A stretch of 64,000 nucleotides of DNA from the NCBI RefSeq assembly GCF_009914755.1, contig NC_060931.1; one strand, 5' to 3'. Position 1 is the stretch's first letter; the number at the start of each line of letters is the position of its first letter. Below are positions 26,001 to 34,960 of this stretch, in pieces. A program made the translations under genes and the position numbers. The notes beneath the pieces were generated by a model. That model made no database searches and was not told the origin of the DNA. It saw only the letters and a program-made list of their open reading frames with translations. Origin of the DNA: the human T2T-CHM13v2.0 reference genome, Homo sapiens.

Positions 26001-26660
26001 TAAAATAAAATTACCATATAATCCAGCAATTTCACTGCTGATTATTTATCCAAAGGAAAAGAAATTAATATATCAACACAACTCACAATAACCAAGATAT
26101 GAACTAAACTTAAGTATCCATCAATGAATAAATGGATAAAGAAAATGTAGCACAATATGTTCACAATAGAATGCTATTTAGCCACAAAAAAGAATAAAAT
26201 CCTGTCATTTGCAGCAACGTGGGTGGAACTGGAGGTCACCATGTTAAGAGAAGTAAGCCAGGCACAGAAAGACAAAAATATCACATGTTCTCAATGACAC
26301 GTGGGAACTAAAAAAAGTTGATCTCATGAAGGTAAAGAATAGAATGATAGCTAACAGGAGCTGAGAAGGGTGTATGGGGGAGGAGAATAGGGAGAGAAGT
26401 TAGTTAATGGATAAAAATAAACAGCTTCTGTCCAAGATGGCCAAATAGGAACAGCTCCAGTCTGCAGTTCCCAGCGTGATTGACGTAGAAGACGGGTGAT
26501 TTCTGCATTTCCAAGGTACCTGGTGCATCTCATTGGGACTGGTTGGACAGTGGGTGCAGCCCACTGAGGGTGAGCCAAAGCAGGGTGGGGCATCGCCTCA
26601 CCCAGGAAGCGCAAGGGGTCAGGGGTTTTCCCTTTCCTAGTCAAGGGAAGCTGTGAAAGA

Positions 26661-26855
26661 CTATACCAGGAAAATCAGGACTCCCGCCTTAATACTGCAC
26701 TTTTCCAATGCTCTTAGCAAATGGTACACCAGGAGATTATATCCCATACCTGGCTCAGCAGGTCCCATGTCCACGGAGCCTTGCTCACTGCTAGCGCAGC
26801 AGTCCAAGATGGAACTGCCAGGCAGCAGCCTGGCTGGGGGAGGGGCATCCGCCAT
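26661..26855 (-). CDS. L1 antisense ORF0-like ORF (64 aa); translation unproven
   Basis: MADAPPPARLLPGSSILDCCASSEQGSV...EPGMGYNL, ORF0 homologue. Confidence 0.5.
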   Translation of the reverse strand: MADAPPPARLLPGSSILDCCASSEQGSVDMGPAEPGMGYNLLVYHLLRALEKCSIKAGVLIFLV

Positions 26856-27422
26856 TGCTGAGGCTTGAGTAGGAAAACAAAGCGGCCAGGAAGCTTGAAC
26901 TGGGTGGAGCCCACCGCAACTCAACGAGGCCTGCCTGCCTCTGTATACTCCAAAGGCAGCAGAAACTTCTGCAGACCTAAACTCCCCTGTCTGAAAGCTC
27001 TGAAGAGAGCAGTGCTTCTCCCAGCATGGTGTTTGAGCTCTGAGAATGGACAGACTGCATCCTCAAGTGGGTCCCTGAATCCCATGTAGCCTACCTGGGA
27101 GACACCTCCCAGTAGAGGCCGACTGACACCTCATACAGCTGGGTGACCCTCTGAGATGAAGCTTCCAGAGGAAGGATCAGGGAGCAGTATTTGCTGTTCT
27201 GCAATATGTGCTGCTCTGCAGCCTCTGCTGGTAATACCCAGCAAACAGGGTCTGGACTGGACCTCCAGCGAACTCCAACACACCTACAACTGAGGGACCT
27301 GACTGTTAGAAGGAAAACTAACAGAAAGGAATAGCATCAACATCAACAAAAAGGACATCCACACCAAAACCCCATCTGTAGGTCACCATCATCAAAGACC
27401 AAAGGTAGATAAAACCACAAAG

Positions 27423-28445
27423 ATGGGGAGAAAACAGAGCAGAAAAGCTGAAAATTCTAAAAACCAGAGTGCCTCTTCTCCTCCAAAGGATCGCAGCTCC
27501 TCACCAGCAATGGAACAAAGCTGGATGGAGAATGACTTCAACGACTTGACAGAAGTAGGCTTCAGAAGGTCAGTAGTAACAAACTTCTCCAAGCTAAAGG
27601 AGGATGTTCAAATCCATCACAAGGAACTAAAAACCTTGAAAAAAGATTAGACAAATGGCTAACTAGAATAAACAGCATAGAGAAGACCTTAAATGACCTG
27701 ATGGAGCTGAAAACCATGGCACAAGAACTACATGACGCATGCACAAGCTTCAGTAGCCGATTCGATCAAGTGGAAGAAAGGGTATCAGTGATTGAAGATC
27801 AAATTAATAAAATGAAGTAAGAAGAGAAGTTTAGAGAAAAAAGAGTAAAAAGAAACAAACAAAGCCTCCAAGAAATATGGGACTACTTGAAAAGACCAAA
27901 TCTACATTTGATTGGTGTACCTGAAAGTGATGGGGAGAATGGAACCAAGCTGGAAAACACTCTTCAGTATATTATCCAGGAAAACCTCCCCAACCTAGCA
28001 AGACAGGCCAACATTCAAATTCAAGAAACACAGAGACCACCACAAAAATACCTCTAGAGAAGGGCAACCCCAAGACACATAATTGTCACATTCACCAAGG
28101 TTGAGATGTAGGAAAAAAGTTAAGGGCAGCCAGAGAGAAAGGTCGGGTTACCTACAAAGGGAAGCCCATCAGACTAACAGCAGATCACTCAGCAGAAACT
28201 CTACAAGCCAGAAGACAGTGGGGGCCAATATTCAACATTCTTAAAGAAAAGAATTTTCAACCCAGGATTTCATATCCAGCCAAACTAAGCCTCATAAGTG
28301 AAGGAGAAATAAAATCCTCTACAGACAAGCAAATGCTGAGAGATTTTGTACCACCAGGCCTGCCTTACAAGAGCTTCTGAAGGAAGCACTAAGCATGGAA
28401 AGAAACAACCGGTACCAGCCACTGCAAAAACATACCAAATTGTAA
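27423..28445 (+). pseudogene. L1 ORF1p, disrupted
   Basis: MGRKQSRKAENSKNQSASSPPK start; frameshift and stops downstream. Confidence 0.9.
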
Positions 28446-28508
28446 AGACCATCGAGGCTAGGAAGAAACTGCATCAACTAACAGGCAAAATAACCAGCTA
28501 ACATCATA

Positions 28509-32335: not shown

Positions 32336-32549
32336 GCAATGAGAACACTTGGACACAGGATGGGGAACATCACACACCAGGGCCTGTCATGGGATGGAGG
32401 GATGGGGGGGATAGCATTGGGAGAAATACTTAATGTAAATGATGAATTAATGCGTGCAGCAAACCAACATGGCACATGTATGCATATGTAACAAACCTGC
32501 ACGTTTTACACACGTACCCTAGAACTCAAAGTATAATAAAAAAAAAATA

Positions 32550-32850
32550 GGCTGGGCTCGGTGGCTCACGCCTGTAATCCCAGCACTTTAGGCCGAGGCG
32601 GGTGGATCACAAGGTCAGGAGATCGAGACCATCTTGGCTAACACGGTGAAAACCCGTCTCTACTAAAAATACAAAAAATTAGCCGGGCGCGGTGGCGGGT
32701 GCCTGTAGTCCCAGCTACTCGGGAGGCTGAGGCAGGAGAATGGCGTGAACCTGGGAGGCGGAGCTTGCAGTGAGCCAAGATTGTGCCACTGCAATCCGGC
32801 CTGGGCTAAAGAGCGGGACTCCGTATCAAAAAAAAAAAAAAAAAAAAGAA
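32550..32850 (+). mobile_element. AluY (Yk-like) inserted in the L1 A-tail
   Basis: CpG-rich AluY with the variant ctgcaatccggcctgggctaaagagcgggac; A-rich TSD aaaaaaaaata. Confidence 0.92.
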
Positions 32851-32872
32851 AAAAAAAATAATAATAATAATA

Positions 32873-34690
32873 AGTAAGCCAGAAAAAAGAAACCCACATA
32901 GGAGAGTTGGAATGAAAAATGCTAGGAATAGGGGAGGGGAACATCCTGCTGAAGACTCAGGGAAAAGCACTGCACTGCAAAATAACTAGCATAAGAACCA
33001 GAAGAAATTTCCTTGGTGTATTAATTAGGATGTACATCAAGAATTTAATGAAATAGGAGCCCAAATCCGAAAGACAGGAAAAAAACACATCAAGATAAGC
33101 GGTAAAATTGAAGAATTTTTACCTTTTTAAACAAAAGATACAAGAGGTAAAAAGGAACAAAAGGAAAATTGAAGAATCATAGAGACAAGAAGAGGATGCC
33201 AAGCACAAAAGCCAAATTAAATCTGGTTTGAAAGCAGCAAAGAGCAGAATTCACAATGCAGACATGGACTGGTAATGACAAAGGTGAATTTAAGCCGTTT
33301 TACCAGAAAGAGATAAAAATGTTGAAAGGGAAAGTTATAGGTGTGTAAGATACAGAACAGAGAAACAGAGATTCAACAATAAAGTTATAGTTAGTTTGGG
33401 GGATGGGAATACTTTTGAATGCTTTCTCAATAGCAAATGCTACTCCTATCAAATGGGAGTGATCTCAAGTCAGATATCTTTTCATGGGGACCTGCATGAC
33501 TCTTCCTCCATGCTGCCTGTGCGTTTACTCTAGAAGCTTCAATATCTCCTTACTGAGGAGCCTCAGGAGGTGGAAGTAAAGGGTGGGTTTTCTTGTCTCA
33601 CTTGTTTTTATTGGTGCCAGCATTTGGGGTAGACCCCATGCTTAGAAATTTATAGCCAGAGAGCTATAAACTTAGGCCTGAGAGGGGGAATGTGTCACAT
33701 AACAGGCAGGGGTGGGTTGCATGGACGTTATAAAAGGCAAATGTTGAGTCTTAGGTCCTAAAATCCCGAGGTCAAAGCATTAACTCGAGACATGTCCATT
33801 GCTAGTGTTCACTGCAACCTAGAGTAAACTGAGCCCATAGTCTATGCATACTTAGGAGGCCACTCTACTCTTTTCCGTTGCTGGCCCTTAGACCGAGGAC
33901 AGCAATGACAGGGCAGCTGGGCAGTAGAAGGGAACAGCTTGAACTCAAAGTTCCAGATTATCAGTGGGTACCAGCTCCTCAGCTTGGGAATGTTCCTAAC
34001 AATATTCCTGGAAAACAAACAAATAAATGGAACCACTGGAAAAGCCACAAAGCAGAACACTTCAGTGTATAGACTGAAAGGCTCACTTCACTTTAGGCAA
34101 GATTAATAACATCAGATCTATATTTAGCCATATTCCAGGGAATATTTAAATTGCAGGGATAGAGACAAAATTCCAGAAGTATTCAAGCAGAAACAACAAC
34201 AACAACATCAAAAACAAAAACATTTTAATTGTAAAGGAATAAAAATATCAAACTGGGCTGGGCCTGCAATGCTAAATGGCAGAAGCCAATGAGGAAATGT
34301 CGGTGGATCATGAGCTCAATGTTTGTGTTCCAGCTACTGTTGCTGCAAAACAAAGAAACCCAGGACGTGGTGGCTCTTAGCAGCTCATGAATAAACCTAC
34401 CATGGTTCTCTGATGGAGTTTACTGATTTCTGTTCACTTTTCTCCTCCACTTCAAAACATGCTCAGATCATACGGTAGTCAAAAAGCAAAAGAAAGCCAC
34501 CAGGTTGCTCATGCCTCATCAGCATTTTAAAAAGCTGCATTGTGTCTCGTTTCACAATGTGAAATTTGATCACTTTTACACAACTATTTTATGGGTCTGA
34601 AAAGTGCTGTGTATCCCTAAGAAGCTTTCTAGGGGAAGGTCTTGTTATATTAATTGTTGAATAAATCTCCCTAAAAATGAAAAAAAATTA
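32873..34690 (+). other. L1-mediated 3' transduced segment (~1.8 kb) with terminal poly(A) remnant
   Basis: Lies between the L1 tail and the second TSD copy (aaaaataaacag 26413-26424 / aaaaatcaacag 34691-34702); ends AATAAA-tctccct-A-rich tail; the host L1MA 3' UTR resumes right after. Confidence 0.85.
34660..34665 (+). terminator. Polyadenylation signal used by the transducing L1 transcript
   Basis: AATAAA 7 nt upstream of the A-rich run 34673-34690. Confidence 0.7.
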
Positions 34691-34960
34691 AAAAATCAAC
34701 AGTTAGATAGAAGGAATAAGTTCTAGTGTTCAATAGCACAGCAGGGTGACTGTAGTTAACGATAATATATTGTATATTTCAAAATAGCTAAAAGAGAATA
34801 TTTGAAACATTCCCAACACAAAGAAATGATAAATGTTTAAGGTGACAAATATCCTAAATACCCTGATTTGATCATTACACATTGTATGTATGTATCAAAA
34901 TATCACATATACCTTATAAATATGTGCATATATTATTTAACAGTAAGAAATAAAGTAAAA
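34691..34960 (+). mobile_element. Remainder of the L1MA4-like 3' UTR
   Basis: acagttagatagaaggaataagttctagtgttc...cccaacacaaagaaatgataaatgttt continues directly from ...ttagttaatggataaaaataaacag at 26424. Confidence 0.9.

What the first reader, a model, noticed from the sequence alone, without database searches (positions are those of the whole stretch)
26413..34702. Full-length L1PA6-like insertion carrying an ~1.8 kb 3' transduction of foreign DNA
Seen: the L1's A-tail (32535 onward, now holding an AluY) is not followed by its target-site duplication. Instead ~1.8 kb of unrelated sequence follows, ending in AATAAA (34660-34665), 7 nt, an A-rich tail and then aaaaatcaacag (34691-34702). That matches aaaaataaacag just before the L1 (26413-26424) at 11/12 positions. 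Deleting 26425-34702 rejoins the host L1MA 3' UTR seamlessly (...gttaatggataaaaataaacag|ttagatagaaggaataagttc...). Established: L1 transcripts can read through their weak poly(A) signal and copy flanking DNA to new loci. Inference: one ~8.3 kb retrotransposition event moved this segment from the source L1 locus, so it tags the donor element and any sibling copies. A full-length L1 with a transduction this long is uncommon.
Basis: partly seen in the sequence, partly recalled or inferred. Interest (0 to 1): 0.8.

Follow-up and report, generated by a model that had tools for sequence, protein, structure and literature searches.

The report
L1 insertion carrying chr20 flanking DNA
An old, dead full-length L1 jumping gene on chromosome 7 dragged about 1.8 kb of chromosome 20 DNA with it when it copied itself, which is a well-known behaviour of L1, although the parent L1 is no longer at the chromosome 20 site.

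Summary

- **Structure.** Window 26425-34690 is a single L1-type insertion into the 3' end of an older L1MA-like element. It is bracketed by a 12-nt target-site duplication that matches at 11 of 12 positions.
- **Contents.** It holds a full-length but broken L1 (26425-32537) and an inner A-rich tract. A later Alu with its own perfect 12-nt duplication sits in that tract. Then come 1,814 bp of non-L1 DNA (32866-34679) and a short new A tail.
- **Donor.** The 1.8 kb has exactly one paralogue in the genome, chr20:17391509-17389720 on the minus strand (K2P 7.1%). There the AATAAA is followed by a GU-rich stretch instead of an A tail.
- **Correction 1.** Cleavage was 14 nt after AATAAA, not 7.
- **Correction 2.** The donor site holds no L1 today. 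Homology starts at ctcattt|aaaaataag, an L1 endonuclease-type site, so it looks like an empty donor site.
- **Empty target site.** Two chr8 pericentromeric duplicates of this chr7 region lack the whole insertion.
- **Siblings.** No sibling copies were found.

This is a textbook 3' transduction and of low interest. The only notable point is that it records a lost donor L1.

The parts
26002..26424 (+). Host L1MA-like 3' region, upstream half of the interrupted element
   Evidence: Matches 11 other L1MA-like loci at 73-89% identity.
26413..26424 (+). 5' copy of the target-site duplication, aaaaataaacag
   Evidence: It is a single copy in the chr8 paralogues L009 and L010.
26425..32537 (+). Full-length primate L1 (about 6.1 kb) with broken ORFs
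   Evidence: Window 26431-32545 is colinear in one HSP with a full-length L1 at C7:108.025 Mb (L030 501-6665, 90.8% identity). The 5' end matches the 5' ends of 5 relatives. The longest stop-free frame is 621 aa.
32535..32540 (+). The L1's own AATAAA, which was read through
32538..32549 (+). Inner A-rich tract (tail of the donor L1), first part; also the 5' copy of the Alu target-site duplication, aaaaaaaaaata
32550..32848 (+). Alu with A tail, a later separate insertion into the inner A tract
   Evidence: It is flanked by a perfect 12-nt duplication (32538-32549 and 32849-32860).
32849..32865 (+). 3' copy of the Alu duplication (32849-32860) and the rest of the inner A/AAT-rich tract
32866..34679 (+). 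Transduced DNA copied from chr20:17391509-17389720 (minus strand)
   Evidence: 1,773 aligned positions, 119 substitutions, K2P 0.071, 12 gaps. There is no similarity to the L1 body and no Rfam family.
34660..34665 (+). The AATAAA that was used for polyadenylation; cleavage fell after 34679, 14 nt downstream
   Evidence: At chr20 the same AATAAA is followed, after aaaaatg, by a GU-rich tgtgctgttctt.
34680..34690 (+). Remnant of the new poly(A) tail (aaaaaaaatta)
   Evidence: It is absent at chr20.
34691..34702 (+). 3' copy of the target-site duplication, aaaaatcaacag
34703..34965 (+). Host L1MA-like 3' region, downstream half
   Evidence: It continues directly from 26424 in other copies.

Best explanation
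One L1 retrotransposition event with a 3' transduction.

1. A retrotransposition-competent L1 once sat on the minus strand of chr20 at about 17391509/10. That position is antisense inside an intron of a proprotein-convertase gene.
2. Its transcript read through the L1's own AATAAA and through five further AATAAA/ATTAAA hexamers.
3. It was cleaved and polyadenylated 14 nt after the AATAAA at chr20:17389739-34, which has a GU-rich downstream element.
4. This RNA of about 7.95 kb held the L1, the donor's A tail and 1.81 kb of flank. It was reverse-transcribed by target-primed reverse transcription at a TTTTT/AT site in the 3' end of an L1MA on chr7, which created a 12-nt target-site duplication.
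5. An Alu later landed in the inner A tract.
6. The donor L1 is not in today's genome. Most likely it was a polymorphic allele that was never fixed.

Shown: the structure, the target-site duplication, the empty target site, the unique donor paralogue, and both of its boundaries.
Inferred: that an L1 once sat at the chr20 boundary, and why it is gone.
For: 1. The duplication brackets the composite, not the L1 alone. The two flanks abut in other L1MA copies: exactly in 5 of 11 and within about 4 nt in 3 more.
2. Two chr8 segmental-duplication paralogues of this chr7 region (L009, L010) carry one copy of the target, ggatacaaataaacag|ttagat, and lack 26425-34702.
3. There is exactly one paralogue of the 1.8 kb, on chr20 (4 of 4 candidates scored).
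4. At the 3' boundary both loci share aataaatctccctaaaaatg. chr7 then has As, while chr20 has tgtgctgttctt. This is the signature of an RNA cleaved at a real poly(A) site.
5. At the 5' boundary chr20 reads ctcattt|aaaaataagtaagcc, and homology to chr7 begins within 1-2 nt of the ttt|aaaaa step. In 264 kb of local sequence, only 50 of 982 A5+ runs (5.1%) are preceded by TTT. A random position lies within 2 nt of TTTAAAA with probability 0.23%.
6. Two A-rich tracts plus donor-site sequence at the start of the transduced part match the anatomy given in a review, read in passages (PMC4859970).
7. The timing is coherent. The insert-donor K2P is 0.071, less than the roughly 0.10 between chr7 and the chr8 copies that lack the insert. 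The L1 body is 90.8% identical to a family member.
Against: - No L1 lies upstream of the chr20 paralogue. Within chr20:17380000-17408000 the only L1 matches are old ones at 66-76% identity, on the wrong strand or in the wrong place. The parent-offspring link therefore rests on the boundary motif, not on a donor element that can be seen.
- The 5' boundary lies in low-complexity A/AAT sequence, so it is only resolved to 1-2 nt.
- The new A tail is short, about 10 nt.
- No sibling insertion shares the tag.
- No outgroup genome could be examined.
Confidence: 0.88

Rival explanations
1. Two separate events. The L1 inserted alone. Later a 5'-truncated retrocopy of a polyadenylated chr20 antisense transcript inserted into the L1's A tail.
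For: A tails are favoured L1 endonuclease targets. An Alu did insert into this very tract. The duplication of such a second insertion would be A-rich and hard to see. Microhomology could favour truncation at an A-rich point of the RNA.
Against: - Only about 10 nt (34680-34689) lie between the end of the chr20 homology and the L1 duplication. That is too little for a retrocopy tail, its own duplication and the rest of the L1 tail.
- The AAT-repeat sequence just upstream of the 1.8 kb is not repeated downstream.
- The donor boundary sits at ttt|aaaaa, which this model does not predict (5.1% even given an A5 run).
- It needs an independent antisense intronic transcript, for which there is no evidence here.
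Confidence: 0.05
2. A chimeric retrocopy made by template switching. Reverse transcription started on a polyadenylated chr20 antisense RNA. At or near that RNA's 5' end it jumped to the poly(A) end of a full-length L1 RNA, and so copied both in one event.
For: It gives the same final structure with one duplication. The A-rich junction could provide the microhomology for a switch. L1-mediated chimeras are known; this is recalled and no paper was read for it.
Against: - It requires priming on a non-L1 RNA, followed by a complete 6.1-kb copy of an L1 RNA entered exactly at its tail.
- It does not predict the ttt before the A run at the donor boundary.
- No independent transcript is known at chr20.
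- Read-through supplies the joint RNA without any extra assumption.
Confidence: 0.05
3. DNA-level duplication or rearrangement that brought chr20 DNA next to the L1, with no RNA step for the 1.8 kb.
For: The window lies in a segmental duplication with chr8, so DNA-level duplication does occur here.
Against: The copy ends 14 nt after an AATAAA and is followed by an untemplated A tract. The composite is bracketed by a duplication at an endonuclease-type site, and the chr8 copies lack all of it.
Confidence: 0.01

Closest known systems
L1 3' transduction (Moran 1999; Goodier 2000; Pickeral 2000 are recalled; the anatomy is taken from passages of PMC4859970)
   Same: - The L1's own weak AATAAA is bypassed and a downstream poly(A) signal is used.
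- There are two A tracts.
- The transduced part starts with donor-site sequence.
- One duplication brackets the whole insert.
- The insertion sits at an endonuclease-type target.
   Different: - The donor L1 is absent from the donor locus in this genome.
- At 1.8 kb, the transduced part is longer than the 7-997 nt range reported by a short-read survey of polymorphic events. That range is method-limited, as the paper itself says (PMC9311842).
Transduction-traced source elements of polymorphic human L1s (PMC12350158, passages)
   Same: The same logic applies: the sequence between two poly(A) stretches is used as a barcode for the progenitor locus.
   Different: Those are young L1HS events whose sources are mostly still present. 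This one is an old, fixed event (K2P 0.071 to its donor) with a lost source and no siblings.
L1-mediated chimeric retrocopies made by template switching (recalled; no paper read)
   Same: Two unrelated RNA-derived parts lie in one insert with one duplication and one terminal A tail.
   Different: Here the 5' part is a complete L1 with its A tract, and the junction maps to an endonuclease-type site at the donor. Both fit read-through better.

Membership tests
L1 3' transduction | The 5' part is L1 sequence that runs to its own 3' end, poly(A) signal and A tract | tested here: met
   Window 26431-32545 is colinear with a full-length L1. AATAAA lies at 32535-32540, followed by an A tract.
L1 3' transduction | Non-L1 DNA follows and ends in a second A tail placed 10-30 nt after a poly(A) signal | tested here: met
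   AATAAA lies at 34660-34665. Homology to the donor ends at 34679 and As begin at 34680. The segment has no similarity to the L1 body.
L1 3' transduction | The target-site duplication brackets the whole composite, not the L1 alone | tested here: met
   The 12-mers at 26413-26424 and 34691-34702 match at 11 of 12 positions. The empty site is seen in chr8 paralogues and in other L1MA copies.
L1 3' transduction | The transduced DNA has a source elsewhere that lacks the A tail | tested here: met
   There is a single paralogue at chr20:17391509-17389720, which continues with tgtgctgttctt after the cleavage point.
L1 3' transduction | The transduced part begins with the donor's 3' target-site duplication, meaning it begins at the donor L1's insertion site | tested here: inconclusive
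   Homology begins within 1-2 nt of ttt|aaaaa at chr20. That is the expected nick site (5.1% background). The length of the donor duplication cannot be read without the donor's 5' junction.
L1 3' transduction | A source L1 is still present just upstream at the donor locus (corroborating, not defining; sources can be polymorphic or lost) | tested here: not met
   There is no L1 in the right orientation within chr20:17380000-17408000. The sequence upstream of the boundary is unique DNA, then an Alu on the other strand 144 bp away.
L1PA6 subfamily | Diagnostic positions against subfamily consensus sequences | not testable with these tools
   No repeat library is held. Indirect evidence is K2P 0.071 to the donor and 90.8% identity to a family member. 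These fit the 30-10 MYA span quoted for L1Pa7-L1Pa3 (PMC7449397 passages), roughly L1PA5-7.
AluY subfamily | Diagnostic positions against Alu subfamily consensus sequences | not tested
   Only shown to be an Alu-like insertion of about 300 bp with an A tail and a perfect 12-nt duplication.

The most novel reading that the evidence does not exclude
The chr7 insert is not a read-through product. It is a one-step chimera: reverse transcription began on an independent polyadenylated antisense RNA from the chr20 convertase-gene intron, then jumped end-to-end onto the poly(A) tail of a full-length L1 RNA. On this reading no L1 ever sat at chr20. A milder variant that is also not excluded: the donor L1 was fixed at chr20 and was later removed exactly by recombination between its target-site duplications.
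Probability: 0.07. Interest if true: 0.45.

Novelty: new member of a known kind. Interest (0 to 1): 0.22.

Why it matters
It matters little beyond annotation. This is a clean, fully resolved example of an old fixed L1 3' transduction. Both the empty target site (chr8 duplicates) and the empty donor site (chr20) can be read inside a single human genome.

Its modest value has three parts.
- It is a record of a once-active L1 allele that has vanished from its donor locus.
- It is a relative time marker. The chr7-chr8 duplication came first, then the L1 insertion, then the Alu.
- About 1.8 kb of chr7 sequence is really antisense intronic DNA of a chr20 gene, which matters for read mapping and paralogue calls.

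No coding or RNA function was found in the transduced DNA.

Tried and rejected
- **Classic papers.** Szak 2003, Pickeral 2000, Khan 2006 and Tubio 2014 are not held. Transduction length distributions in reference genomes and L1PA ages rest on recall or on passages of other papers. Supplements of the transduction surveys were not opened and could list this locus.
- **Old L1 ORF1 idea.** My guess from reading that the 1.8 kb might be an old L1 ORF1 remnant found no support. blastn and tblastx against the L1 body gave no hit at E<=1e-3.
- **Rfam.** No family reached the gathering score in 26300-34900.
- **Literature on this instance.** One search (PCSK2, LINE-1, transduction, retrotransposition) gave 1 paper, which was unrelated.
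- **Close siblings of the L1.** Among 40 scored of 7,183 candidates, the best 5' UTR relatives are only 85-87% identical. No close sibling or duplicate was seen.
- **L1 subfamily.** It was not determined.
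Full report
**What is in the sequence**

Reading the junctions confirms the layout.
- The 12-mer aaaaataaacag (26413-26424) is followed at 26425 by an L1 5' end.
- The L1 runs to about 32537, where its own AATAAA (32535-32540) merges into an A tract.
- An Alu occupies 32550-32848. 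It is flanked by a perfect 12-nt duplication, aaaaaaaaaata (32538-32549 and 32849-32860), so it is a separate, later insertion into that A tract.
- After a short AAT-rich remainder, non-L1 DNA runs to AATAAA at 34660-34665.
- Then come tctccctaaaaatg, a short A tract (34680-34690) and aaaaatcaacag (34691-34702). The last matches the upstream 12-mer at 11 of 12 positions.

**Is the L1 full length?**

Window 26431-32545 aligns in a single colinear HSP, at 90.8% identity, to a 6.17-kb L1 at C7:108.025 Mb (L030 501-6665). A second relative, L031, has an internal deletion compared with the window element.

Five relatives all start their L1 within a few variable bases before tccaagatgg, as the window element does. 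The element is therefore full length to within a few bases.

It is dead. Read from stop to stop, the longest open frame in it is 621 aa, and the rest is in pieces.

Its best 5' UTR relatives are 85-87% identical (40 scored of 7,183 candidates). No near-identical sibling was seen.

**Is it one insertion into an L1MA?**

I fetched 11 loci that match the upstream flank and placed both flanks on them.

| Result | Loci |
|---|---|
| Flanks exactly adjacent | L009, L010, L011, L013, L015 (5 of 11) |
| Within about 4 nt | L017, L018, L019 (3 of 11) |
| 333 nt apart | L012 |
| No downstream match | L014, L016 |

Two of these loci, L009 and L010, are not independent L1MA copies. They lie at chr8 46.93 and 47.11 Mb and belong to a segmental duplication that covers window positions from about 16.5 kb to beyond 62.8 kb. 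Block identities are 88-92%, with K2P 0.076-0.113 and mostly about 0.10. Both carry a single ggatacaaataaacag|ttagat-type junction and lack 26425-34702 entirely.

The 12-mer with up to one mismatch occurs 3 times in the window, against 1.8 expected. What matters is its position at exactly both ends of the insert, not its occurrence.

**Where does the 1.8 kb come from?**

A search of the window's own genome with 32873-34672 gave four candidates, and all four were scored.
- The window itself.
- chr20:17389727-17391501 on the minus strand, covering the whole query at 91% identity.
- Two 40-nt low-complexity matches.

BLAST against 28 kb of chr20 refines the match to window 32865-34679 against chr20:17391509-17389720. 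Identity is 90.6% over 1,836 columns. A global alignment gives 1,773 aligned positions, 119 substitutions (p 0.067, K2P 0.071, non-CpG K2P 0.060) and 12 gaps.

The segment shows no similarity to the L1 body and no Rfam family.

**The two donor boundaries**

*3' boundary.* Both loci read gttgaataaatctccctaaaaatg. chr7 then continues with aaaaaaaatt and the duplication, while chr20 continues with tgtgctgttcttaatg. An AATAAA, a cleavage point 14 nt later and a GU-rich element just beyond it make up a standard poly(A) site. The chr7 copy therefore derives from an RNA cleaved there.

*5' boundary.* chr20 reads gcttatctcattt|aaaaataagtaagccag. chr7 reads ...aataataataataagtaagccag. Homology begins within 1-2 nt of the ttt|aaaaa step, which is the form of an L1 endonuclease nick site.

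How often would that arise by chance? In 264 kb of local sequence, both strands:
- A random position lies within 2 nt of TTTAAAA with probability 0.23%.
- Only 50 of 982 runs of five or more As (5.1%) are preceded by TTT.

**No L1 at the donor**

Within chr20:17380000-17408000 the only L1 matches are old ones, at 66-76% identity, on the wrong strand or in the wrong place. The sequence just upstream of the boundary is unique DNA, followed by an Alu on the other strand. So the donor site is empty.

Pfam searches of the genome place it inside a gene.
- Proprotein-convertase prodomain exons lie at C20:17278140 and 17310979, on the plus strand.
- Catalytic-domain exons lie at 17480121 and 17507050, on the plus strand.
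- The P domain lies at 17532365, on the plus strand.

The donor therefore lies inside an intron of that gene, on the opposite strand. The name PCSK2 is recalled, not tested.

**Mechanism**

1. An active L1 sat at the chr20 site.
2. Its transcript ran past its own AATAAA and past five more AATAAA/ATTAAA hexamers inside the 1.8 kb.
3. It was polyadenylated at the sixth.
4. The RNA of about 7.95 kb was inserted at a TTTTT/AT site in the chr7 L1MA.

The anatomy matches the review description of such events: two homopolymer tracts, and donor-site sequence at the head of the transduced part (PMC4859970 passages). A second poly(A) stretch is also the operational criterion used in a recent long-read survey, where 466 of 5,311 polymorphic L1 insertions (8.8%) carry a transduction (PMC12350158 passages).

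The missing donor is most simply a polymorphic L1 allele that was never fixed. Exact loss by recombination between its duplications cannot be excluded. Both are inference.

**Timing**

| Comparison | Value |
|---|---|
| Insert against donor, K2P | 0.071 |
| chr7 against the chr8 copies that lack the insert, K2P | mostly about 0.10 |
| L1 body against a family member, identity | 90.8% |

The order is L1MA first, then the chr7-chr8 duplication, then the L1 with its transduction, then the Alu.

About 3.5% per lineage corresponds to roughly 20-35 Myr, depending on the neutral rate assumed (the rates are recalled). That sits within or near the 30-10 MYA span quoted for L1Pa7-L1Pa3 (PMC7449397 passages). 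'L1PA6-like' is therefore plausible but untested, since no repeat library is available here.

**Rivals**

*Two-step model.* The L1 inserts first, then a retrocopy lands in its tail. The Alu shows that this tract is a target, which counts for the model. Against it, only about 10 nt separate the end of the chr20 homology from the L1 duplication. The AAT-rich sequence upstream of the 1.8 kb is not duplicated downstream. The model also does not predict the ttt|aaaaa boundary.

*Template-switch chimera.* This gives the same final structure. It needs an independent antisense intronic RNA and a jump exactly onto the tail of a full-length L1 RNA, and it also does not predict the boundary motif.

*DNA-level duplication.* This is contradicted by the poly(A) junction.

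I put the rivals together at about 0.1.

**Novelty and interest**

The phenomenon is textbook. This instance does not appear in the one targeted literature search I ran. The supplements of the transduction surveys were not opened, and the classic genome-wide papers are not held.

At 1.8 kb the transduction is longer than the 7-997 nt reported by a short-read survey, which states that its method limits the maximum length (PMC9311842 passages). I could not quantify how unusual this length is among fixed full-length L1s.

No siblings share the tag. The insert does not define a family; it only records a lost donor. Interest is low.

Noticed in passing
window about 16532-62834 (and probably beyond), against G000:C8:46920652-46951000 (+) and C8:47.11 Mb (-): Most of the window is one copy of a segmental duplication shared with two chr8 pericentromeric loci. 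Block identities are 88-92% and K2P is about 0.08-0.11. The chr8 copies lack the L1-plus-transduction insert.
   Followed up: partly
window 51233-59881, against C8:46947507-46948446: About 8.6 kb of the window corresponds to only about 0.9 kb in the chr8 paralogue. This is another large insertion in chr7 or a deletion in chr8. It was not examined.
   Followed up: no
window 32538-32860: An Alu with an A tail of about 20 nt lies in the inner A tract of the composite insert. It is flanked by a perfect 12-nt duplication, aaaaaaaaaata. Its subfamily was not determined.
   Followed up: partly
G000:C20:17278140-17532625 (donor site at 17389720-17391509): The donor of the transduced DNA lies antisense in a large intron of a proprotein-convertase gene. 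Prodomain, S8 and P-domain exons were found on the plus strand on both sides of it.
   Followed up: partly
window 34703-35235, against C8:46930814-46931347: This block, just downstream of the insert, is less diverged from chr8 (K2P 0.076) than the other blocks (0.087-0.113). It could be chance in 533 bp or local gene conversion.
   Followed up: no
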